A DNA stretch of 64,000 nucleotides. It comes from Schizochytrium sp. TIO01. Taxonomy: Eukaryota; Protista; Bigyra: Labyrinthulomycetes. Where the stretch lies: assembly GCA_004764695.1 (NCBI GenBank), contig SMSO01000033.1:2666001-2730000 (forward strand). The letters run 5' to 3'. Below, piece after piece: positions 26,855-54,700 of this stretch (position 1 is its first letter; every line of letters starts with the position of its first letter). A program made the translations under genes and the position numbers. Below the pieces are notes generated by a model. It did not search any database. It was not told the DNA's origin and worked only from the letters and a program-made list of their open reading frames with translations.

Positions 26855-28441
26855 TTATCGTCTTGCCGTTTGTACATCATCACCTTTGATGGATCGGATA
26901 AAATTTTCAATGTTCGTATAGGAATTCTGAATGTTTTCCGGGACATAAGTGGTTTTATTTGATCCTTTTGGACCCTTTGAGCGAATGGAGACTGCACTTT
27001 CGCAGTTTATTGAACTCACTTGATTCGTATTACGAAATGAGCACTCAAGCTGGACGTTAACCGTATTTTGCCGTCCACTTTCGGGCCGGAAGAGCTTGAA
27101 GTTCTTTCCTGGACACCAACAGAGTTTAACAACAATGTGCTGTCCGTATACTTCAATTGACGAGGTATCTTTTCTTCCACTTGTTTTGCAGATGGTCCTC
27201 CCTCCGTGCGCTCCGCCAGTGCGAAGGATGTATTTTTGAAGGCGGTGTTCAATTTCCCATGAGTAGACATTTTCTACATTTTCTACACCCCCGCTTTCCA
27301 AAGCTTGCTGGAAGTTTACGATAACCTGGATTGTGTCTGGAAGCCCAGAATGGGCCAATACGATGTAGCTGAAGCGGTAATCCTTGTACGGGTAATATGC
27401 AGGTACGGAGAGGGTATCTTTCACCAAAGTCGGAGGTGAATATGGGGTTTCTCCTGGAGTGAGGCTTTCAGAGTCGTTTGGATTTGGAGGCTGGCCTCCC
27501 TGTTGACGCCGCGTTGTCCTTTGAGCTCCTGTGGATCCATGGGTTGTTGGGCTTTGACTGAGTTCCTGAGAGGATCGTAAACTTTGGGAGTGACTGCTGT
27601 CTGTTGCTGATCGGGAGCTGCCATTGCTATCAGCCACATTGCTGGAGCCTATAATTATGGAATCGTCAACAATTGTGTCGTCTCCATTGAAGGTTGTAAT
27701 ATCTTCGGGAATGAACGTTTGACTGAGTCCCTGAGAGGATGGTAAACTTTGGGAGTGACTGCTGCCTGTTGCTGATCGGGAGCTGCCATTGCTATCAGCC
27801 ACATCGCTGGAGCCTATAATTATGAAATCGTCAACAATTGTGTCGTCTCCGTTGAAGTTTGTAATATCTCCAGGAGTAGGCGAGTCTCTGTCATCGATGT
27901 CACTGGAGAATCCAGTCTCGGGGTTCCATGGATCATTGAGGTGGGTGGAAAAGATTCCATTTGGGATAGGCAGGGAGCCGAAGTGGTCTTCTGTACTTGT
28001 AAAAGGTAGTAGATAGGGTCCGTTTGAGACAGGCTGCGAGTCGAAGTGGTCTTCTGTACTTGTAAAATGTAGTAGATAGGGTCCGTTTGAGACAGGCTGC
28101 GAGTCGAAGTGGTCTTCTGTACTTGTAAAAGGTAGTAGATAGGGTCCATTTGGGATAGGCAGGGAGCCGAAGTGGTCTTCTGTACTTGTATTAGGCATGA
28201 AACCGAAGTTGTCGTCTGGGCTCGTTGTTAAGCCACCGTACATAGAGTCTTGAGGGTCATAATTATGAGCCAACGGCCCGCTTTGAAGGTTATCTTCTGG
28301 GCTGACATCAAAAACTTCGTCGTTGCCGTCGTCAAGGGGCGGTTGGTTGAAGAGGTCTGATCCAAGCTCAAGTTGACTGTGACGTTTCGGCACAGACCCT
28401 GGTTCCTGAAACCCCTGGCTAGAGAGCTCCCGCTTCGTCAT
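26855..28441 (-). CDS. Hypothetical protein: acidic, Ser/Pro-rich repeat-containing N-terminus and a ~170-aa globular C-terminal domain
   Basis: 528-aa ATG-initiated ORF with in-frame tandem repeats. No family recognised with confidence. Confidence 0.7.
   Translation of the reverse strand: MTKRELSSQGFQEPGSVPKRHSQLELGSDLFNQPPLDDGNDEVFDVSPEDNLQSGPLAHNYDPQDSMYGGLTTSPDDNFGFMPNTSTEDHFGSLPIPNGPYLLPFTSTEDHFDSQPVSNGPYLLHFTSTEDHFDSQPVSNGPYLLPFTSTEDHFGSLPIPNGIFSTHLNDPWNPETGFSSDIDDRDSPTPGDITNFNGDDTIVDDFIIIGSSDVADSNGSSRSATGSSHSQSLPSSQGLSQTFIPEDITTFNGDDTIVDDSIIIGSSNVADSNGSSRSATDSSHSQSLRSSQELSQSPTTHGSTGAQRTTRRQQGGQPPNPNDSESLTPGETPYSPPTLVKDTLSVPAYYPYKDYRFSYIVLAHSGLPDTIQVIVNFQQALESGGVENVENVYSWEIEHRLQKYILRTGGAHGGRTICKTSGRKDTSSIEVYGQHIVVKLCWCPGKNFKLFRPESGRQNTVNVQLECSFRNTNQVSSINCESAVSIRSKGPKGSNKTTYVPENIQNSYTNIENFIRSIKGDDVQTARR
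27553..27869 (-). repeat. Two-copy 165-bp (55-aa) in-frame tandem duplication
   Basis: GACTGAGT anchor at 27556 and 27721. Encodes DIT(N/T)FNGDDTIVDD(F/S)IIIGSS(D/N)VADSNGSSRSAT.. twice. Confidence 0.9.
27956..28191 (-). repeat. About four copies of a 63-bp (21-aa) in-frame tandem repeat
   Basis: GAAGTGGTCTTCTGTACTTGTA at 27980, 28043, 28106 and 28169. Encodes TSTEDHF(GSLPIP/DSQPVS)NGPYLL(P/H)F. Confidence 0.92.
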
Positions 28442-30226
28442 GTTGTATATCTCAATACCTCCAATGCAAGGAATCTCAATGCAGGGGATCCTGGCAGTCC
28501 AACAATTTCTGCAGAGACTATTTTCTTGAGCTCGAAGTTTCCGGTCTGCCGGCAGGGGCTAGAACCCGCTTTCTACTATAACATAGGGCTATCATACATT
28601 AGACATGCCTACAAAGTAAAAGGGTACCTGTATCTATTAGTCTGCATATAAACAACATTGAGGTCGATCAAAATCGAGGCAGATTTAGCTATACTTTTAT
28701 TATTATACCCCACCTCCAGCTTTGGACCTCATACATTCATATTGACTCGTCTCGCATACTGGGGGGCAATACGGGATTCATGTAAACCAGCAAATCTGGA
28801 AGAACTTTCTGCACACCAAAAGCGCTGCGATCGAGCCAAGCAAGCAACTTGAGCCTTGGAAAGATCCCATTGCTTTACGCTGACCAGAGCTTAAAGAGTG
28901 ACGATTGTATTGATTGCTTCTACGAGATCTCTGATGAAACATGCAAAGTACTACTTACTACCTAATCGAGACTATAGCATCCTAGCACGTGTCGAAAAGA
29001 AAACGTGCTGCTACAAATGAATCGAGTTCACTGCTCCAAAGAAGCTCGACGGTCTTCAAGCCGTCTCGAAGCGAAGCGACCTGGGAAGGCCGCCAGGTGC
29101 TGCGGCCACACGATGCACAGCCCGAAGTCGAGCGTGTAGGTGATTAATTAGACGAAAGCGGAAGGTTCGCTCGGCCAGCGCATGCACCACGGCCACTTGC
29201 GAAATCGAGCGGGCGGAGCACTGTACGACATAGTAGCGGAGTCCTAAGCCGTCTCTGGTGCCCATTACCCGAAGGTAGCTAGATTCTAGGGTACCTTCTT
29301 CGCAACACTACAAAGAGTACTCATACTCAGGTAGGTGCTGCTTGCTTGCCTACTTGAAGGCCCCAGATCAGAGCTAGACAACATTGCCTGGTTGGTTTAT
29401 TGGCTCAGCGTCTGCAGCGATCTTTTGCTCGTGACACACTAGTGCTACGATGGTGTACTTTCTCCAATACGAAAGGAGCCTTCACACTCTGACTAGTCAC
29501 AGGTCACTCCTGTCAATGCTTTGATTGATTGAAGTAGAGTGTCGTCCTACTAAGTAAGGTTAGTAATAATTTTGATTAAACAATTGAGAAATGAAGCAAA
29601 AGGCCTAAAAAAGAGTTAAACTTTGAACTATTTGCTACGGTGTCTTACAAGGCCAGGTAGAGAGGTAGCTATTTGAAGGCAAGTCTTTAGAACGGTCAAT
29701 GTTTAGATATCTATCGAGGTAGTGAGTAGGTAGGTAGGCCACGCTGAAAGACGTAGTAGCTTGTCCTTGTCCTTAGTTTCATGTAAAGGAGAATCCCCTC
29801 TTTCACTTTCACGTTTCGAAAGCATTGCAAAACCCAAGCTACAACACACATTACAGCAATCCAAGTAGAACCAAAGCTGCAATATTTCTTGAGTATTCGT
29901 GGTGTCACAGGAGGTGTGAGGATCACTCCACGAAGCGTATGTTGTGTTGAAAATACTGGAGAGAAAATCTTTAAGGTTCGCATTAAAATCACTGACATTG
30001 TGAGCTCGCAGTAACAGGCAGGATCTACGCAATACACGCATTAAACTGAGTAGCTTCTCCAAGGCATAACGCTGTAAAACAGGCCTTAAGACGCCTCCAA
30101 GATTTAAAAAGGTACTTAAGGACAATTAGACTTCGTGTTGACTTCGTCTTTCGATCTTGAATTCTAGTTGAGTAGAAGGTCCTTGCCAAAAGTTTATTGC
30201 AAGAATTAAACCAGAAAGCACGGAAG

Positions 30227-33200
30227 ATGCCCCCTGTATTTCATATAGAAGACATTAGTCGGTTCACCGCTTTCGTTCAGTAAGTGTATCAAAGCAAGCT
30301 CATTTGGCATAGCTAGTCACATTCAAAAGTCAAAAACCTTATGTAACATCCACTAACTTCTTGCACACTTAAATTATTGAGTGACAGTCTGAGTGAAAAG
30401 AACATTGACGATGTAGGCGCCAAAGCTCTCTCTGGAGCTCTGAAGAGCTGCAAATTTCTGAGGGAATTGCGGTACGTTTGGACAGCAAGCAACAGATACC
30501 GAGATTGTATTCGCATGAGAACGGTAAAGAGTGACTTCTACTCAAAAGTACCGAAGTTCAAAATGAATTAAACAACCTAAGCACTTCCAAGCCGTGCTCG
30601 GAAACAAACGTCTGGAAGACAAGTTACAATGGCACATGGATAATCAAGATAGAAATAGCTTGGCTGACGGTGGCTTGAGAACGAGATACACAGTCTGGGG
30701 GGTAACAACATTGGTGAGGAAGGCGCCAAAGCTCTATCTGGAGCTCTAAAGAGCTGCAAAAAGCTGACCAGTTTGTGGTACGTTTGAATGGCAAGCAAAA
30801 TAATGCTGAGATTGCATCCGCATGAGAACAATGAAAATGATTTCTTTTCAGAGCAATGTCGAAAAAAGCTATCTCCAAATTGAATTCAACAACCTGAGCA
30901 CATCGAAACATGCTTGAAAGCAATTGATTGACAGCGGCATGTGAATGACCAAGATGGGAATTTCTTGGCTGACGGTGGCTTGAGAACGATATACACAGTC
31001 TGGCAGGTAACAACATTGGTGATGAAGGCGTCAGAGCTCTCTTTGGGACTCTGAAAGACTGTGAACATTTGAAAATTTTGGGGTACGTTTGAATGGCAAG
31101 CAGCAAATACGGAGCCCGTGTTCGCATGAAATCGCAACGAGGATTTCTTTTCAGAGCAATATTAAAAATACCAGTCTCCACAATGCATTAAATCACCTGA
31201 GCACATCTAAACATGCTTGAAAGCAATTGATTTACAGCGGCACATGAATAATCGAGATGGGAATAGCTTGGCTGACGGTGGCTTAAGAACGATATACACA
31301 GTCTGGGGGGCAACAACATTGGCGAAGAAGGCGCCAAAGCTCTCTCTGGAGCTCTGGAGAGCTGTAAAAACCTGGCCTTTTTGCAGTACGTTTGAACAGC
31401 AAGCAAAATATGCTGAGATTGTATCCGCATGAGAACGGTAAAGATGATTTCTTTTCAGAGCAATATCGAAAATACCAATCTCCAAATTTAATTAAATCAC
31501 CTGAGCACATCTAAACATGCTTGAAAGCAACTGATTCACAGCGGCACATAAGTAATCGAGATGGGAATCGCTTGGCTGACGTTGGCTTGAGAACGATATA
31601 CACAGCCTTGAAGGCAACAACATTGGAGTTGCAGGCGCCAAAGCTCTATCTGAAGCTCTAAAAGACTGCGAAAAGCTGACCGATTTGTAGTACGTTTGAA
31701 TGGCAAGCAAAATATGCTCCTGAGATTGTATTCGCATGAGAAGCGCAACGAGGATTCATTTTTAGAGCAATATCGAAAATACCAGTCTCCACAATGAATT
31801 AAATCACCTGAGCACATCGAAACATGCTCGGAAGCAATTGATTCACAGAGGCACTTGAATGATTAAGATGGGAATTCCTTGGCTGACGGTGGCTTGAGAA
31901 CGAGATTCACAGCCTAACTGGGAACAACATTGGAGATGAAGGCGTCAAATTTCTCTCTGGGACTCTGGAGAGCTGCGAAAATTTGACAGAATTGGAGTAC
32001 GTTTGAATAGCAAGCAGCAAATACTCAGATTGTATTCGCATAAGCACCGCAATGAGGATTTCTTTTCAGAGCAACATCGAAAATACCAGTCTCCACAATG
32101 AATTAAATCACCTGAGCACATCTAAATATGCTTGAAAGCAATTGATTCACAGCGGCACATAAGTAATCGAGATAGGAATCGCTTGGCTGACGTTGGCTTG
32201 GGAACGATATACACAGCCTTGAAGGCAACAACATTGGCGATGTAGGCGCCAAAGCTCTCTCTGGAGCTCTGAAGGACTGTGAAGGTTTGACAGAATTGTA
32301 GTACGTTTGAATAGCAAGCAAAATATGCTGAGATTGTATTCGCATAAGTACCGCAATGAGGATTTCTTTTCAGAGCAACATCAAAGTACAAAGATCCACC
32401 ATGAATTAGATCACCTGAACACATCTAAACATGCTCGGAAGCAATTTATTCACAGAGGGACATGAATAATCATGATGGGAATAGCTTGGCTGACGTTGGC
32501 TTGAGAACTGTTGACACAGCCTTGAAAGGAACAACATTGGAGATGACGGCGCCAAATCTCTATCTAAAGCTCTGAAGAGCTGTAACAATTTGACCGATTT
32601 GTTGTACGTTTGAATGGCAAGCAAAATATGCTCCTGAGGTTGTATTCGCATGAGAAGCGCAACGAGGATTTCTTTTCAGAGCAACATCGACAATAACAAA
32701 ATCCACAATGAATTAAATCACCTGAGCACATCTAAATATGCTTGAAAGCAACCGATTCACAGCGGCACATAAGTAATCGAGATGAGAATAGCTTGGCTGA
32801 CGTTGGCTTGAGAACGATATACACAGCCTTGAAGGAAACAACATTGGCGAAGAAGGCGCCAAAGCTCTCTCTGAAGCTCTGGAGAGCTGCAAAAATCTGA
32901 CGGTATTGCGGTACGTTTGAACAGCAAGCAAAATATGCTCCTGAGATTGTATCCGCATGAGAACGGTAAAGATGATTTCTTTCCAGAGCAATATCGAAAT
33001 TACCAATCTCCAAATTGATTTAAATCCCCTGAGCACATCTAAACATGCTTGAAAGCAACTGATTCACAGTGGCACATGAGTAATCGAGATGGGAATCTCT
33101 TGGCTAACGTTGGCTTGAGAGCGAGCTACACAGTCTGAGTGATAACAATATTGGCGATGTAGGCGCCAAAGCTCTTTCTGGGGCTCTGGAGAGCTGCAAA

Positions 33201-36200
33201 AATCTGACAAGTCTGCGGTACGTTTCGTTGGAAAGCAGCAAATTCTGAGACCATGCTTTTATGAGAATAGCGAGAGGTGTTTAAGCACAAGATGCAAAGA
33301 TGTAATGCACGCTAGGACGAAGATGGTGTACAACGCTGAGAGAAAGCTACTTGCGTGTCCAAATCTGCGATCTAGATACTGACTATATCTTATGAACAAG
33401 GAGCACAGTCTTGAAAGTAACAACATCAGCATCAAAGGTGCTATGACTCTTTTTGTAGCACTAGGAGGTCACAAGAGACTGAAAGAATTGAAGTACGTTT
33501 AATTGATTACAACAAACAACCTTTTCTTCTCAAAGGGAAGATCGAAGTAGAGTGGAAGCAAGAAAACGATTTTCAATTTCGAACAAAATCTGAACCCTCG
33601 AATTCTGCAGAGAACGACAGATTTTACATTACAGTAGGAAATAGTGAAAGAGTTGAAGTGTTTGAGGTGATGCTGGTGGCGCATAAATGATTAAGGTGAA
33701 TATGGTTTGACTGACTTCGTTTGACCACCACAATGTAGTCTTTTACACAACGCAATCAGGATTGAGGGTAGTAAGGCCCTCGCGGATATTCTACATGAAG
33801 TATGTCCTGCTTTTCAGATTTCGTAAGTGCCATTTCCTCTGTCGGTAATAGTTTGTGCAGAATCGTCCTGGCTTCATTTACCTGATTCGGTTGAGTCGAT
33901 AGATCATGTCTACAGCATAGATGGTTGTTCTCACATTTATCTGATTAGTTTTAATTATCATGATGCAGGTCCGAGTTTGATAAACTTCCCATCCACAAAA
34001 ACCTAATCGCAACTTTGTCTCTTGGGAATGACCCAAGTGAAATATCTACTTATGGTGTGAATGCATCTTCGTAAGTTCCCTGTGTTGCTAAAGAGTTAAT
34101 TCTTTAAGATATGGCCGTCAAGATTTCAAGTATCCCTGACCCGCTCGTTTATACATTCATACACTATTTAGAGATCAACTAGACAATCCCAACGCGAGCT
34201 TCTCTGATGTAATAGAGTTCGCCAGAAAGATCTCCAATCTTCGCACAAGTGTTGGAGGAGTAAGAGGAGAATCCATGCGCGCCAGTATTGACGTGCTTAA
34301 AGAATACGTCACGGCTCCAATTTCATCTGCAATCCAGCGCTATATTGAGCAGTTGAGGCTTCGACAATTTTTTGGAGACATTGCAAATGCAAAGGCTTGC
34401 CTGGAAACACTTCAGGAGAAGATTCGGAAGAGCCCTCCATCCGAGCTGTTGCCTAGTCTCATAAAGGAGCGAGACGCTGAAAAAGTACGCTTACAATCAC
34501 TCATGCAAACCGTATCCCCTTGGCTCCGGGAGAAAAGCTGCGAAAAAGACGAAGACTTAATGCGAGGACTGAAAGCAAAACTTCAAAATGTATCTGAGAA
34601 TCTGGACACAAGCGATGCGTCTCTCCGTCAAGAGACATTCGAAAATGACTTGCAACAAATTGAAGAGCTCGAAGACCGTGTCAAGGCATGGCTAGAAGAG
34701 CGTAAGACGAGAAGTGAGTCAGCGTCTGCCTTTAAACAGCAGAGTATGCAAGCTCTTGAAAAGCTAACATCCCGGGCATCTGAATTAGGTCTCGGAGATG
34801 TTTTCACTCTTGCTGTTGGAACGCCTGAAAAAGCTACAGATATAGAGGGAGAGCTACTGAGTCTTCGGGGTGCCCTTCAGGAAGAACTCAATTTTCTACA
34901 AGACGATACCCTAGAGGTGCAGATGAAGGAGCTGCTTTCGACGGTCAGCTGTATTCTCAGGAATTTTGAAAATTTAGCTGAAAAAAAAGGTTTTGATGAG
35001 ACGGCCTTTCATTCACCCAAGGCTCTTATTGACTTTGTTTTGTTGGGTTCTCGTGAACCAAACCTTTTGCACCTTGAGCAACTATATAAAAAGCTCGAAC
35101 TTTCGCGGGATGCTATAGAGATCCTGAATAGCTTGAAAAGGGTCAAAGATCTTGCAGAGAAGGATGCAAAGGCGAATACAGAGCACTTTAAAACCCTGAT
35201 TGCACAGCAAGAGATGATTCTCTCAGACGGGACTCCTATTGAGCTGAGTAAAAGAATTCGCCATAAGCTTGCTGAAACATTGCAGCATGCGCAAGAGCAT
35301 TTTCCGGAGCTACTGAAAGACAATGATTGGTTAGAAAGACTGCATGTAAGTGCAGAAGATACTTTTGAAGTAGCTCGCTCGGGGCTCTGGTTGGCGAATG
35401 TAAAAGTCTCGGACTACCAGTTTGTTGGAGAGCCTCTCGCATCTAGAGGCGGCAAGATGGTACAAAAGATACTCGACACCCATGGTCGAACTTTCGTTCT
35501 TAAACAATTTCAGCTCGGAGATATGAGCCAATCCAAAGCGTTTTACAGACAAGTTGCGAATCTAGGAAAGGTGGCGTCGCCGCACGTGATCCAAATCATC
35601 GGTGCTTTTGTAGATGCCCCCGCTCCCGGAATGCCGCCGCGAGGATGCATTGTAATGCCTTACTATGAGCATGGTGACCTAGCCAAATGGATTGTTGAGC
35701 ATACTAATGAAGACAAAGCGGTTCGTGATCGGCTTGCAACAGGCTTGCTTATTGGAATTGCAGAATTCCATGCGCACGGAATCGTGCATTGTGATATCAA
35801 ACCAGAGAACATTTTTCTCACAAGTAACGGAACTCCATTGCTTGGTGATTTTGACGGCATAAAACTCGCAGACTGTACAGCAACGTACACGTCTCTTCAA
35901 GCTACACCGCATTATATTGCCCCTGAGTTACGGAATGGGCCGGTAGATGTATTGAAAACAGCGATGGACATGTATTCGGTGGGTGTCGTGTTGGAAGACC
36001 TGTATCCTGACCCAACTCCTGAAATGCTAGAACTTATTAATTTGCTTAAAGTAGCCGACCCTGATCAGCGCCTCAGTGCTTGTGAAGCGCTCCAGCACAA
36101 AGCATTTGGCGCTACAGAAATTGCCGTGGAGACGTGCCTTGTGTGTATGGAGGAAATCAAAATTTCTGAAGGGACGAGTTGCGAGAAGGGAGACTTTCTT

Positions 36201-36860
36201 TGTAAGAATTGCCTTGAAAGCTCAGTCGCAGCTGCTGCTGAGCCCCAAGCCTCCGTGAGGATTGATGCTGATGGGGCGATGGCATGTATTAAGCCTGAGT
36301 GTAGTGGACGAATCCTTGGCAGAGATATCACCCGACTTGCTCCTGATGCTGTCAACCACCTTTTACGAATCGCCCAGACCAAAGTGGAAAGCGAAGCAGC
36401 AATTCGAGCCGAGCGAGAAATACAAAATCGTATGGCTCAAATTTTACAAACGGAGGGATTGGCTCAATGCCATTTACAGCATATCCAGGAAGAGATTTTG
36501 AATATATGCTGTCCACACTGCAGAACTTGTTTCGACCAATTTGATGACTGCTGTGCAGTTGAATGTGGTAATGCTGCATGTGGCCATTACTTCTGCGCGT
36601 GGTGTCTTCAATATAAGTCGCGGGACAATTCTGCTTGTCACAGCCATGTAAGAACATGTTCAAGGAAGCTTGGAGATGATCCATTTTTCCCAAATTCATT
36701 TGAGCAGGTTCGGGAGGCGTGGCAGCTAATACGAGCGGAGCGTCTCCGGGAGTATTGGAGAGCAAACATTAAGGACAGAAGTCTTCCAGAAATTCTGGAA
36801 GCGCAGCTTGTGCCTATGCTAACCCAAGATCTCGTTGGCTCAGAATTTAGTTTGCAGTAG
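30227..36860 (+). CDS. Spliced LRR - coiled coil - protein kinase - RING1/Rcat (RBR-like E3) protein; 15 exons, predicted 1283 aa
   Basis: Exons: 30227-30279, 30388-30471, 30694-30777, 30999-31082, 31302-31385, 31606-31689, 31913-31996, 32217-32300, 32520-32603, 32827-32910, 33134-33217, 33409-33492, 33739-33822, 33969-34070, 34172-36860. All introns are GT-AG (GTACGT or GTAAGT donors), all phase 2, most with a clear CTGAC/CTAAC branch point. Joined length is 3852 nt with no internal stop, in frame with track ORF 34275-36860. Kinase motifs VLKQF, HCDIKPEN, GDFDG, YIAPE, DMYSVG. Cys-rich domains CLVC...CKNC...CIKPEC and CPHC...DDCCAVEC...CGHYFCAWC...HSHVRTC. Confidence 0.88.
30388..33217 (+). 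repeat. Tandem array of ten ~305-bp exon+intron units (84-nt LRR exon + 219-223-nt intron), followed by two diverged LRR exons up to 33822
   Basis: Start-to-start spacings are 306, 305, 303, 304, 307, 304, 303, 307 and 307. Recurrent GTACGTTTG...TTGGCT(G/A)ACG(G/T)TGGCTT...CACAG intron and AACAACATTGG...GGCGCCAAAGCTCT exon sequences. Confidence 0.95.
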
Positions 36861-49286: not shown

Positions 49287-51703
49287 TCTCTTACACCCGC
49301 CTCTACAGAACTCAAGGAGACCAAGCAGTCCACCACTGCAGCATTCGGGTTTGTCGTCAAACCTCTACTAAAATATCTTGGTGCGGCCCTCACCACAAAT
49401 ACACTAAAGTAAAATCACCATACAAACTCAGGTCGGGCGTTGACTTTCCTTAGGGGTACACGACTTTGCAATTACCACATTCGCACTGCTCCTATGGATT
49501 TTACTATAGAAATCCATGCTAACAAATAGACAGTAGAATCGCGATCCAGCCTACCTTCTCAGAACACACTCTCGTACAGGACTTTGATATTTAATAAGTC
49601 ATTGATATTTTTTATATATTTCAAGTCTGGTATGAGGTGCCAAATTGTCACGCGCTCACCATTGGCTTCGGAATTGAATTGCTCTTCTATCTTTAAACTG
49701 AATTTCGGTTCTGCGTTGATCCAAAATCAGCAGAAGTCCTGTGAGAGCCCCGTTTCCCCGGTTCGCGTCTTTGAGTAGAAGCAGAGCTTGGTTTCTCTTT
49801 TATTTTTTTGCGAGGCAAGATTTTGTTAAAGACAGACGCGTCAGGCGGCGCGGGCCAAATTAAACTCTGCATATAAACTACTAGACGATAAGAGGTCCCA
49901 TGCGTGGCAAGTTGGCTACGGATTGCGACTCCCTCTGCAAGTGCCGGCAAACAAACCTTAATCAAGTTCAAGGTGAGTACTGCTGTCCAGAGTTTCCAGG
50001 TTCGACGAAAAGGTTTAATCTCTTTCCAAGTTGAAGATCGAGTCCAAGCACAGCATCCAAGATCTCGTTTAAAGGCCAAGGTCCAAGGTTTTGAGAACCA
50101 TCATGATTATTGCAGGAAGTTCATTTGGGTGGTGTTGCCAGAGAGTGGCATACAAATTCGGCAAACACCAGATCGTAGGGGAACCTCAAGGCCATGTGCT
50201 TGATGAACTGGGAAAGACCGTCTAAACTCATATCTACGAACATCTGAGTCATACCTCATAAAGGAGCCTTCAACGTGTGGATAAGGAGAGGGAAGGTTAT
50301 GTGGGTGCATATTCACGATGTTGAGGTTATTCGTAATACTACGTATCTAGCTAGGCGCAAGTGCATAATACTGATAATGAGTGCACTTAGTACTTAAGAC
50401 GCTAAACTCGAAATTGACACAGTCTATGTGTGCACGTAAGACCTTCAGGCCATGGTACAGAAGAGCTATTTATTCGAGTACTCTTACTTTAAAATTGATA
50501 AGATAATGGCACGAGCCAGTTTCTACAGGGTCGATAGGAACTTCTCAAACTAGTGAGAATCAGTCGACGTCGAAGCATTGATAAAAGTAGCATCAGTAAT
50601 ACCACTACTATAAACAGTAGCAGTAATAGTAGTAAGAAGAAGCTGCCTAGCCTGAGTATTAAATTACATTTAGGTACCTGCAACCAATGAAAAGTTTGCT
50701 CAGGGCGTCTCGAATCTCTGTTCAGGTTGTCTCCGCTCTGCCAGGGCGAAATATGGTGCCCCGTGATTTGTCAATGAAGGCTCTTGTTTAATAAGTGATA
50801 ACGTTATAAGAATGGCTTCAATCTTGTCGTTTGTAACATCTCCATCATCTAATGTCGAGGAGGTCCCATCCGCATGAGGCAAGAAGAGCAAATCGTACTG
50901 CCTACAATGGTGAATCTACCAATCCTGTCATTTGAAGAGTTTAAAGCATACCACTCATGGCATTTAGACGGCCCAATCCTGGTGCAGGTAATAGTCTGAA
51001 GATTTGCTAGTGCTATCAGGGTGTGCCAGTTCATTTATTTTCAACTTGAAGTCGAGCCCTTTAGGTTCATATAGTCTCTCTCAAGGTATGCATGCTCATT
51101 GCTCGGAGATGTTGGAGAATAATAATATTTATATTCAACATAGAGGTACTTCAATAGAATGCTAAAACAGTACCAGAGGGTTACATGTCTCAAAGCTAGG
51201 CCTTTTTTTAGATACCATAGTGAATACAATACGAAAGCTAATTATTGTATTCAGATTATTGTGCTCAGTGTGATCCAGCTAATGCTAAACGGAATACGCC
51301 TTGCGCAGGAAAGGCTTGAGCAATCAAAGTCATCATTGATGCGAGACCCAGCAGTTGATGAAGCTGGAAGTTCTATACTCAACGGATCTACAACTCCTCT
51401 GTCTTTGTTTACTTTTTTTTTTTTGAGAACTTTTGACTAAATATATAAAATTTATAGCTTACCTGTGAATAAGTCTACGCTTAGAAGTTGCTTATTTTCG
51501 ATTAAGTTTATGTGTGTCAAGTGCTGTTGTAGTTGGATGTGCAGAATTGTAGTGAAATATTAAGGCAAAGGAAGACAAATATATACCTTTATAGGTGCAC
51601 TGAATAAGAACAAAAAGTAAGGAGGTGCCATTGGAGGGGAAATCTCAATCGATGCCTACCGGTTCGTGGCGGTCGGAGACTTTTTAAGATATCACATGCG
51701 AGG

Positions 51704-54700
51704 ATGAGCTTTGATGCGGCATTGAAGCCATGCGTGGTCAAAGCACTCCAAGACATTGACAAGGGCGAATCGGAGATTATCCTGAAGGACGTTGGACTCT
51801 CATATGAGGAACTATTAGCGGTGGCAAATGCTCTCAAGAGAAACCTCACGGTACGCAAACTTGACCTTTCAGGCAACGCCACGCTAGATGCAAGGGCGGG
51901 CGACATTCTTCGATCTTTGCTAGAAGTGAACGCCTTTCTTGATGAAATTGATCTCTCAGGCTGCTCAAAGATTGGCCCTTCGGGTATTAGCGAAATTGCG
52001 AATGGCCTTCGAATCAATATGACAGTTCGTACGCTTCATCTGCGGAATACGGAAATGGGCGGTTATCTTGGTACACGTCGATTATCAAGTGCCTTGCGCA
52101 CTAATAAGTCTCTCGAGAACCTCGACCTGCGTATGAATGGACTTGGCGTACAAGGTGCAAAACATCTTGCCAAAGCCCTTGTTGGCAACACAAGTTTGCA
52201 ATTCTTGAATATCAGTGAAAATGATATCACAGACGACGGTGCGGTGATGATGTCGAAGACTCTTCGAATGAACCGTAGCTTGGAAAAACTTGATATGTGG
52301 AGAAATGGTATTGGAGAGCATGGTGCTTCACATCTCCGAGAAGCTGTACGAGAAAATTCGGTTATTCAAACTCTCAACACAGAAAACGTCATCCATCGCA
52401 ATGACAACGCACGGCGTATCATCGGGCAACGTGAAGCCCAAAGCCCAGCCGTAAAACTGACACCTCTTGAAAGGAGATCGATGCAGTTGTTTCGGTGTAT
52501 TTTTCAGCACCAGGGTTGGCACGAAGATGATCCAGACACGTTGCTTGAAACCGATGAGCAGGAGGAGGCACCTGACAAAGTTGCAGCTATTATCAGCATG
52601 GTAGAAGATATTATACCAGAGGAGAACCGAGATGTTGAAGTGGTTCTACCATTGAGGTTTTCTCCAGAGGCTTTTCGTCTTGCCCATAACGACACCGAAC
52701 TCTTCGTGTGGTGCATTGAGCAGCTTGCACAAGCTGATTGCTACAGCAAAATGCTAGATGAACCCCTCAAATCAAGTCGCCTTTGGCTTCAAGAGATTGA
52801 TGGTGAAGCGATGCCTATGGCTCACCTTATTATGAGCAGCCGAGAATGTGATGGCGGTGTTGAAAAGTTATGCGAAGCGATTTTCAATCATATGACAATT
52901 GACGAAGGCAGGAAATTATTCAAAGCGAAGGACAGCGCAGGGCGTACATTTCGCTCTCTTGCGTCAGGACACGCTAGCGAGAGCATCGTAGCATGGGCCA
53001 AAGGGTACGGCACCTATCTGCTGCGTTATGATATTGTTGATGGCCCGCCTGTTCACGAAAGTAAAACATGTGCAGTTCATTTTGCTACGGACATTCTTAC
53101 TGAACAAGAGGTGGCTTTGAAAATTATGAAAGATCCAGAACAGTTTCGAAACGAACTTATCTCTCGGGACCTCATCAAGCCAAGTGATTCATTTGAATCC
53201 CTTCCAGATGTTATTGAAGCTAGCGAGTGCACCGTCAAACTAATGACGCATGTCGTCCCAATCGTCCGAGCGCATTGCGCAGATCGGTGTGTTGTAATGC
53301 CCCGTGCAACTCGTTCGCTCTTTGAAGCGATCAATACAGAACAATTTGTCTCTCGGCAATTAGGTAAAATCCGAACAATTGCGTATGCGCTGGCGATTGC
53401 ATTGCAAGAATTACAAGAAGGAGGACGAATTCACGCAGATATCAAACCACGAAACTTTGTTCGTGTTTCAAAGAGCACTTCAGATACATTTGCAGCAGAA
53501 AACGGAGCTCTTAAGCTGCATTCAAAATGGTTTCAAGTTCGGCGTGCTTCATTGAGATCTATTGAGGGAAGTGGAGGTGAAAATTCGAATGATGAGAGTG
53601 TTGTTGGTGAGGACTGGCAACTCATCGACTTGGATGCATCTGTGGCTATAGGAAGCCCTGCAGGTCTGAAACACAGCAGCGGCTACTGCCCTCCAGAGTT
53701 AGCTCGCGAGTTATTTCCGGCCGGGGCTAGTGGTACTGTTGTGGCTGCTTCTAGCTTTGATGTTTGGAGTTTTGGGGCAATTTTTTACCAGATGCTTTCA
53801 GGTACAAAGCTTTTCATGGTTGACGAAACTGATGACAACTTAGTTTCATTTCATCAAAAAGCAGAATTAATTAACTGGATTACAATAGATCGAGATCGCT
53901 TAGCTCGCATTCACAACGAAGAATGGGCTCGTTGGGAAACAGAATACGCAAAGGATCTCGTACGTGGCTGTCTTATGGGCGACCCTAAAGAGCGTCTCAC
54001 AATCGACGCTGTATTGAAGCACCCATTCTTCACAACAGCAGAAGGCAAACCAGCTCTGGCGTCAGCACCTGAAAATGCCCCCCTGAATGCCGTTTCGGAA
54101 AGCAAAGATGGCGTGGAGAGCTATGCGTCTCCTAAAGACGCGACTAAACGCATTCTGTCTTTCCGTGTCAAAGTGGAGCCTGCAGGTGGAAGCTCGTCTC
54201 GCGCGAAAGGATTTCCGTTGCGTCGACGAGCCGAGCTTGAAATGGTGTATCCTCAGCGATACCACTTTTTCTTGTCTCACATGCAGAAGGAAGCTGCCGG
54301 CATTGTAAAAGATTTATATCTCAACTTGACAGAAGCAAGGTGTTTGGCTTGGATTGATATGCATGCCGAAGATCTTACACAAGATTCGATGCGGCATGGT
54401 GTCGAAAACTCGAGCTTCTATTTACTAGTCTTGACAACAAATGTACTTTTTAGACCTTTCTGTGTCATGGAGCTTTTCTGGGCGATTACTCATCATGGTG
54501 AAGATTCGGATAAAAAGATTGTATTCGTAGTTGAGGAAGACGGGAGGTTTTCTCCCTGGGATGCTGAAATAGACGTGCCTTGGATCTCGGACAAGGAGTA
54601 TGAAGCAGTTCTTACAAAGCGCGGTAGACTAAGTGCCGAGGAAATTCAAAAGAAGGTGGATGCCTTCAAACTAGCCTCCAAACAGCTTCGTGCGGGCATG

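What the first reader, a model, noticed from the sequence alone, without database searches (positions are those of the whole stretch)
30388..33492. Hypervariable LRR surface codons sit right at the splice junction, between invariant nucleotides
Seen: the central x of the LxxLxLxxN beta-strand is the intron-split codon. Its two exon-terminal bases are CG, TG, GG, CA, TA, GA, TA, TT, CG, CG, AA, which is 8 different dinucleotides in 11 exons, giving R, C, G, H, Y, D, Y, F, R, R, N. The preceding Leu codon (TTG, once CTG) and the following GTACGTTT are constant. The neighbouring x pairs also vary (RE, TS, KI, AF, TD, TE, TE, TD, TV, TS, KE before; SE, GG, AG, GG, EG, TG, EG, ER, EG, SD, ES after), while the NNIG/GAKALS core and the introns stay similar. 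Established: these positions form the concave ligand-binding face of LRR solenoids. Inference: diversifying selection or targeted mutation on a recognition surface, as in plant R genes, VLRs and fungal HET repeats.
Basis: partly seen in the sequence, partly recalled or inferred. Interest (0 to 1): 0.78.

Follow-up and report, generated by a model that had tools for sequence, protein, structure and literature searches.

The report
Shuffled LRR sensor exons, marine protist
In a marine single-celled protist, one gene builds its leucine-rich-repeat arm from eleven look-alike one-repeat exons whose predicted binding-face codons, one of them cut by the intron, differ far more between copies than the introns do and whose order differs between strains, which likely marks a fast-evolving sensor wired to a kinase and a likely ubiquitin ligase.

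Summary
Eleven 84-nt phase-2 exons each encode one 28-residue RI/NOD-type repeat of an intact 1249-residue gene (LRR, helical region, kinase, two RING-like domains) in a thraustochytrid. The split codon shows 7 dinucleotides in 8 cassettes; none of 198 intron dinucleotides exceeds 5. Only alternating strand codons (LRR positions 3, 5, 7) and one loop codon beat the intron rate; the other two 'x' positions do not. The constant flanks are just the structural Leu and the splice donor, and a border inside the strand is known from NOD/NLRC genes and Ectocarpus type II LRR-kinases. Selection is supported but not proven: exon silent sites run about twice the intron rate, and standard site tests are weak (M2a/M1a not significant; M8/M7 p 0.04-0.18). 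Introns recombine (PHI p 0.0002). Other strains carry new cassettes in other orders, and 5' alleles differ by 4-7% against about 0.5% in the kinase half. Targeted mutation is unlikely. Verdict: a brown-algal/fungal-style shuffled, diversifying repeat sensor in a lineage and with an output module not found in my literature searches.

The parts
30227..30279 (+). First coding exon (ATG, 17 codons + 2 nt, phase-2 GT donor)
   Evidence: RNA-like contigs of other strains join this region to 30388
30388..30471 (+). LRR exon 1 (84 nt); split codon Arg
30694..30777 (+). LRR exon 2; split codon Cys
   Evidence: GT..AG joints on both sides in RNA-like contigs
30999..31082 (+). LRR exon 3; split codon Gly
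31302..31385 (+). LRR exon 4; split codon His
31606..31689 (+). LRR exon 5; split codon Tyr
31913..31996 (+). LRR exon 6; split codon Asp
32217..32300 (+). LRR exon 7; split codon Tyr
32520..32603 (+). LRR exon 8; split codon Phe
32827..32910 (+). LRR exon 9; split codon Arg
33134..33217 (+). LRR exon 10; split codon Arg
33409..33492 (+). LRR exon 11, diverged; split codon Asn
   Evidence: GT..AG joint 33492-33739 in one RNA-like run
30472..33133 (+). Nine homologous introns of 219-223 nt between the exons (81-90% identical to intron 6; intron 1 70%), mosaic by recombination, branch-point-like CTRAC at -30
33739..33822 (+). 12th 84-nt exon, degenerate capping LRR
34172..35399 (+). Last exon, part 1: region of about 410 residues with no Pfam match at the curated cut-off; likely helical (from sequence, not modelled)
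35400..36122 (+). Protein kinase domain (Lys of VLK, HCDIKPEN, DFD in place of DFG)
   Evidence: Pfam PF00069 E 3e-29; model pLDDT 93.5; kinase fold Z 26.9, rmsd 2.1, 224 aligned
36135..36860 (+). Two Cys-rich RING-like domains joined by a long helix, RBR-like without a recognisable IBR; stop at 36858-36860
   Evidence: conserved Cys in 60 sequences; helix 315-366 in model; weak parkin RING2/RNF4 hits; Atlas RBR clusters 0.91-0.92

Best explanation
This is the repeat arm of a likely intracellular sensor gene (LRR, helical region, kinase, RBR-like zinc domains) whose one-repeat exon-plus-intron cassettes recombine with each other, while selection likely keeps the outward-facing strand residues different between copies. 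Shown: the gene structure, splicing at several of the predicted borders, excess change at strand positions 3, 5 and 7 over introns, recombination among introns, and different cassettes and orders in other strains. Inferred: unequal crossing-over and gene conversion through the similar introns add, drop and homogenise cassettes; tracts that would erase a useful strand residue are removed by selection, so short islands around the strand stay old and carry silent differences with them (short conversion from related LRR exons elsewhere in the genome may feed them). Because every exon starts with T or C, the split codon is always NNY: its residue is set by the upstream exon alone and can never be a stop, so any cassette order stays in frame. 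Inferred output: ligand binding on the concave face would switch the kinase and the E3-like domain; the ligand, most likely from a pathogen or non-self cell, is unknown.
For: Split dinucleotide 7 forms in 8 cassettes vs at most 5 in 198 intron dinucleotides. Codons 26, 28, 2, 23 at 4.5-45 times intron rate on three trees; framework codons pN 0.00-0.02. Codons 26/28/2 are LRR positions 3/5/7, the alternating residues of the strand, the same positions reported as positively selected in Ectocarpus (sites 15, 17, 19; PMC3341825). PHI p 0.0002 in introns 2-9; nearest neighbours change along the cassette. Fourfold sites away from the strand match introns (5 changes vs 4.4 expected), those beside it do not (7 vs 1.5). 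Other strains: new strand residues, two more junction dinucleotides (GC, GT), cassette order changed in RNA-like contigs and back-jumps in DNA contigs. 5' flank alleles differ 4-7% against 0.4-0.6% for the 3' part, with two 5' haplotypes whose depths sum to about the single 3' depth in runs X2 and X10. Homologues of the kinase-RING module carry LRR (3), ankyrin (7), WD40 (1) or TPR (1) N-termini among 30 scanned, some with two kinds.
Against: Exon silent rate is 1.8-2.5 times the intron rate, so the intron baseline may flatter the test; with the exon's own silent rate M2a vs M1a is not significant (p 0.17-0.42), M8 vs M7 p 0.04-0.18, and after correction for 28 codons only codon 26 passes, on one tree of three. 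Only 9 short sequences, recombining, in my own implementation of the models, not PAML. PHI within exons alone was not significant (p 0.08-0.13). Codon 23, in the loop before the strand, is as fast as the split codon on the trees. The 5'/3' contrast compares non-coding with mostly coding DNA. Short contigs from other strains cannot be phased and some may come from paralogues.
Confidence: 0.6

Rival explanations
1. Relaxed constraint: the surface residues are simply free to drift, and they look fast only because the introns are kept alike by more frequent conversion or by their own constraints.
For: Exon silent rate 1.8-2.5 times intron rate (LRT p at most 0.002); site-model tests weak. The same positions are variable in the low-identity homologue P0148 too, as in most LRRs (established).
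Against: Fourfold sites away from the strand equal the intron level, so the intron baseline is not generally too low. Codon 26 still exceeds the exon silent rate (p 0.0008-0.003). The top three tree-free positions are the alternating strand residues. Deeply diverged 5' haplotypes.
Confidence: 0.2
2. A targeted mutator acts near the exon ends (DGR-, RIP- or deaminase-like), raising both silent and replacement changes there.
For: Three fourfold sites next to the strand show 7 changes vs 1.5 expected (p 0.0008, chosen after seeing the data).
Against: All four bases occur at exon position 83 and three at 84, no one-base bias. Intron +7..+25 diversity 0.127, below mid-intron 0.162. Exon 2 is letter-identical and exon 3 differs by 2 letters, with junctions fitting, in runs X17 and X20, whose 5' flank differs by about 4%.
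Confidence: 0.1
3. Diversity is made mainly by alternative splicing: exons are skipped in many combinations, each new joint building a new strand from two half-strands.
For: All borders are symmetric phase 2 and any joint stays in frame with an NNY codon; RNA-like contigs show joints that skip window exons; described for NLRP3 and brown-algal ROCOs (PMC6642158, PMC11378527, passages).
Against: The skipping joints come from other strains and carry other letters, and DNA contigs of other strains show reordering as well, so genomic rearrangement explains them. Splicing alone does not explain why the junction codons diverged in the DNA.
Confidence: 0.1

Closest known systems
Ectocarpus type II LRR-kinases and LRR-ROCO genes (Zambounis 2012, PMC3341825, parts 2-5 of 7 read; Teng 2024, PMC11378527, passages)
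   Same: Stramenopile; one repeat per exon; phase 2 (stated for ROCO exons); positive selection at LRR positions 3, 5, 7 (ROCO sites 15, 17, 19) or 3 and 7 (type II); the type II exon consensus also breaks inside the strand; LRR plus kinase; LRR region recombines while the rest of the gene is conserved (ROCO).
   Different: 28-residue RI-type repeats in 84-nt exons, not 24-residue in 72-nt; no Roc-COR; kinase followed by RBR-like domains; no spare or inverted exons in the introns; type II kinases showed no shuffling, whereas this gene is reordered between strains.
Vertebrate NOD/NLRC genes (Hoss 2019, PMC6642158, passages; figures and supplement not seen)
   Same: One 28-residue RI-type LRR per exon with the border always at the same place within the beta-sheet; rabbit NOD2 is among the best PDB sequence hits (entry named).
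   Different: No NACHT or death-fold domain; LRR is N-terminal; introns here are homologous repeats; the exact codon and phase of the NOD border were not checked against this gene.
Fungal NLRs with high-internal-conservation repeats, e.g. Podospora HET-D/E WD40 (PMC13449251, passages)
   Same: Very similar repeats with a few hypervariable positions, concerted evolution, repeat gain, loss and shuffling between strains, signs of balancing selection.
   Different: LRR not WD40; the repeat unit is exon plus intron; repeat identity is lower (66% amino acid, 76% nucleotide for exons 2-10); no NTPase domain.
Jawless-fish VLRs (recalled; mentioned in PMC3341825)
   Same: Variable concave LRR face built from cassettes.
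   Different: No incomplete germline gene or spare cassette library in the window; no evidence for somatic assembly.
RBR E3 ligases (parkin, RNF216; recalled motifs, clusters)
   Same: RING1-like and RING2-like Cys patterns, conserved Cys at the position that would be catalytic.
   Different: Long helix in place of an IBR; His after the putative catalytic Cys replaced by Ala; no Pfam RBR match.

Membership tests
RI-like (28-residue) LRR | LxxLxLxxNxI/L...helix repeat of 28 residues with horseshoe fold | tested here: met
   28-residue period; NOD2 sequence hit; homologue P0148 models as alternating strand/helix and matches RI and NLR LRRs. The window's own spliced arm was not folded.
Brown-algal shuffled LRR exon genes (ROCO type I) | One repeat per symmetric phase-2 exon | tested here: met
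Brown-algal shuffled LRR exon genes (ROCO type I) | 72-nt exon and Roc-COR domain | tested here: not met
   84-nt exons; no Roc or COR match in the last exon
Brown-algal shuffled LRR exon genes (ROCO type I) | Positive selection on concave-face sites | tested here: inconclusive
   Strong against introns, weak against exon silent sites
Brown-algal shuffled LRR exon genes (ROCO type I) | Spare or inverted LRR exons in introns | tested here: not met
   Six-frame profile scan of the window finds only the 12 coding exons, all on the + strand
NLR (NACHT or NB-ARC receptor) | STAND NTPase domain | tested here: not met
   Pfam scans of the last exon show kinase only
High-internal-conservation repeat sensor (HET-like) | Concerted evolution and repeat polymorphism between strains | tested here: met
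   PHI p 0.0002 in introns; reordered and new cassettes in other runs; full alleles not assembled
RBR E3 ligase | RING1-IBR-RING2 with catalytic Cys | tested here: inconclusive
   Two Cys-rich domains conserved, Atlas RBR-like 0.91-0.92, PDB hits weak (parkin RING2 E 0.08); no IBR seen; zinc domains not fold-searched alone (filled by kinases)
Diversity-generating retroelement or other targeted mutator | One-base-biased changes and an invariant template copy | tested here: not met
   No base bias; no extra copy of the exon in the window; no search for a reverse transcriptase elsewhere was possible without the genome
VLR-like somatic assembly | Cell-to-cell rearrangement within a clone | not testable with these tools
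   Only contigs were available, which drop rare variants

The most novel reading that the evidence does not exclude
Thraustochytrids carry a class of NTPase-free immune receptors in which a swappable, recombining repeat sensor (here NOD-style LRR cassettes held under long-term balancing selection) is wired directly to a kinase and an IBR-less RBR-type ligase, so that recognition and ubiquitin tagging sit in one chain; the cassette library is reshuffled between strains fast enough to track viruses or rival cells.
Probability: 0.3. Interest if true: 0.7.

Novelty: new variant of a known kind. Interest (0 to 1): 0.45.

Why it matters
Exon-shuffled, diversifying LRR sensors were proposed as a possible protist and algal immune repertoire in brown algae but have no known ligand. 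This gene shows the same evolutionary signature in a second, distant stramenopile lineage, with the exon layout of vertebrate NOD genes and a different output (kinase plus RBR-like domains), which points to repeated convergence. Thraustochytrids grow fast, can be transformed and have known viruses (recalled), and 20 public runs from 11 studies hold this stretch, so the long-open question of what such repeat arrays recognise could be tested here more easily than in seaweeds. The splice-junction position itself is not the surprising part.

Tried and rejected
No whole genome is held for this window, so paralogues and a genome-wide diversity baseline could not be counted. Cluster membership and source names of the homologues could not be looked up. 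An intron-motif scan of metagenome contigs found 0 matches, and a protein scan returned 79 loci that matched mainly or only the kinase part at 24-45% identity; none was used. No listed run is on record as RNA; four guessed as RNA were laid and do show GT..AG joints. Summed contig depth over the array was not used as copy number. Fold searches of the kinase-RING model returned only kinases, so the zinc domains are untested by fold. Nei-Gojobori pS at the split codon (0.77) was set aside: it rests on one T/C change at a two-fold site. The idea that the constant TTG and GTACGTTT are a targeting signal was rejected as unnecessary (structural Leu, splice donor; TTA occurs in other strains). Literature: 0 papers for thraustochytrid + LRR + immune + Aurantiochytrium, Aurantiochytrium + LRR + exon, labyrinthul* + LRR + exon shuffling; nothing relevant among 12 listed of 66 or 12 listed of 5,638; the library lacks most subscription journals.
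Full report
Observation. The sequence is as described. Eleven exons of exactly 84 nt lie at 30388-33492, each between an AG and GTACGTTT, separated by introns of 219-223 nt (the tenth 191 nt). The exon-terminal dinucleotides, the residues they give, the Leu codon (TTG 10 of 11) and both lists of neighbouring pairs are correct. The array belongs to a larger intact gene: first exon 30227-30279, the 11 exons, a 12th degenerate 84-nt exon at 33739-33822 and a last exon 34172-36860, together 1249 codons without a stop. Contigs of four runs guessed to be RNA join at GT..AG at several predicted borders, e.g. 30470/30693, 30776/30998, 31689/31913, 32300/32520, 33492/33739. The neighbouring helicase is 67% identical to that of Hondaea fermentalgiana, the best named hit, so the host is a thraustochytrid.

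Is it more than chance? In cassettes 2-9 (8 of 11; the end cassettes have diverged introns) the split dinucleotide has 7 forms; 0 of 198 adjacent intron dinucleotides have more than 5 (mean 0.92 extra forms, Poisson p 0.0004). Codon 26 ranks second (2 of 198 intron dinucleotides as variable) and codon 2 third (7 of 198). In LxxLxLxxN numbering codons 26, 28 (split) and 2 are positions 3, 5 and 7. A single-sequence model of homologue P0148 (same LRR-kinase-RING layout; pLDDT 87.5) puts the strand on positions 3-7 and matches ribonuclease inhibitor and NLR LRRs; with positions 4 and 6 buried Leu, 3, 5 and 7 face out on the concave side (established LRR geometry). The window's own spliced arm was not folded.

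Selection tests. I wrote codon models on cassettes 1-9 (9 of 11) with three trees (exon+intron, intron, exon). Against the intron rate, codons 26 (8-45 fold, p 1e-6 to 2e-5), 28 (4.5-8 fold, p 0.0001-0.003), 23 (5.5 fold, p 0.0005-0.002) and 2 (4.5-5.5 fold, p 0.001-0.005) stand out; framework codons have almost no replacement change. But exon silent sites run 1.8-2.5 times the intron rate, and against that baseline the signal shrinks: codon 26 p 0.0008-0.003, split codon p 0.02-0.05, M2a vs M1a p 0.17-0.42, M8 vs M7 p 0.04-0.18. The silent excess is local: three fourfold sites beside the strand show 7 changes against 1.5 expected, nine elsewhere 5 against 4.4 (grouping chosen after seeing the data). 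So the diversity peak is real and narrow, and positive selection is likely but not proven with nine short, recombining sequences.

Recombination and strains. Introns are mosaic (PHI p 0.0002 for introns 2-9; p 0.0002-0.0006 for upstream intron plus exon; p 0.06-0.10 for exon plus downstream intron; p 0.08-0.13 for exons alone) and nearest neighbours change along the cassette. Twenty of 24 listed runs, from 11 studies, hold the stretch; I laid eight. In runs X17 and X20 one 374-nt contig reads exon 1, exon 2 (0 differences), exon 3 (2), then an exon-7-like copy (7) and an exon-4-like copy; another 235-nt contig (pieces listed for X20, same joints in X17) reads 9-like, 2-like, 10-like. New strand residues and the junction dinucleotides GC and GT appear, bringing the total to 10 of 16 possible. 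DNA contigs of X2, X4 and X10 show back-jumps within the array with intron sequence attached, so reordering is genomic. The 5' flank differs from the window by 4-7% (11/257, 10/210, 15/244, 18/244) while the 3' part differs by 0.4-0.6% (12/3282, 13/2634, 24/3842); in X2 and X10 two 5' versions have depths that add up to about the single 3' depth, as alleles would. Even if all 24 differences of the X10 piece lay in its roughly 0.9 kb of non-coding DNA that would be under 3%. Caveats: non-coding is compared with mostly coding DNA, there is no genome-wide baseline, and short contigs cannot be phased. Loose ends in run X1, whose long pieces are identical to the window, show LRR-like exons with unlike intron flanks, so related exons exist elsewhere in the genome.

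Why the junction is where it is. The constant letters are a buried Leu and the splice donor. A border at a fixed place inside the beta-sheet, one 28-residue LRR per exon, is the layout of most NOD and NLRC genes (PMC6642158, passages; its figure and supplement, which give the exact position, were not seen). The Ectocarpus type II LRR-kinase exon consensus also begins at the x between the strand leucines (PMC3341825, parts 2-5 of 7 read). One consequence is worth noting: all exons begin with T or C, so the split codon is NNY; all 16 dinucleotides give the same residue with either base and none gives a stop. The residue therefore travels with its exon in any reshuffle.

Targeted mutation. There is no one-base bias at exon positions 83-84, the intron next to the donor is not more variable than mid-intron (0.127 vs 0.162), and exons 2 and 3 keep their junctions in strains with a 4% diverged flank. 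The raised silent diversity beside the strand is better read as old variants kept by selection in a converting array, or as short tracts copied from related exons; a mutator is not excluded.

Output module. The last exon holds about 410 residues without a Pfam match, a kinase (model pLDDT 93.5; kinase fold) with DFD for DFG in nearly all of 60 aligned sequences (one search shows D and F; the second Asp also conserved at 90% or more), and two Cys-rich domains joined by a 50-residue helix that resemble an RBR ligase without IBR (inconclusive). The module has 94 relatives at E below 1e-30; of 30 scanned, N-termini include ankyrin (7), LRR (3), WD40 (1), TPR with a NEL ligase (1) and ubiquitin (1). 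This mix-and-match of repeat sensors on one output is the logic of NLR-like receptors, here without an NTPase (inference).

Comparison and novelty. It works like brown-algal shuffled LRR genes (PMC3341825; PMC11378527, passages) and fungal high-internal-conservation repeats (PMC13449251, passages) but is not a member of either, nor an NLR. Ectocarpus sites 15, 17, 19 are the same LRR positions 3, 5, 7. Searches for a thraustochytrid description gave 0 papers or nothing relevant. Earlier unreviewed notes of this scan describe similar arrays in four other genomes, which suggests the pattern recurs widely and lowers its surprise; I did not test them. Verdict: real feature, new variant of a known kind, interest 0.45.

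Noticed in passing
window 51608-55414 (+): A second, apparently intronless LRR gene: N-terminal LRR_6 repeats, protein kinase and a TIR_2 domain (E 7.5e-8), a candidate immune-type receptor in the same window.
   Followed up: partly
window introns 30472-33408: A branch-point-like CTRAC sits exactly 30 nt before the acceptor in all 10 introns, including the otherwise diverged tenth.
   Followed up: partly
window 30268-30388: RNA-like contigs of three runs differ from the window in the last 11 letters of the first exon, so the short N-terminal exon is itself polymorphic between strains.
   Followed up: no
window 35148-36000 and 36550-36780: Extra contigs at lower identity pile on the kinase and RING2-like parts in all four DNA-type runs laid, and two Logan proteins are 51-58% identical to the last exon, so paralogues of this output module likely exist in the same genomes.
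   Followed up: no
proteins P0145-P0175: The kinase plus RING-like module is fused to ankyrin, WD40, TPR-NEL, RanBP1, ubiquitin or LRR N-termini in unnamed organisms; the family seems undescribed in the searches made.
   Followed up: partly
window 26855-28558 (-): ORF just upstream with internal 63-nt and 165-nt tandem repeats; no function assigned.
   Followed up: no
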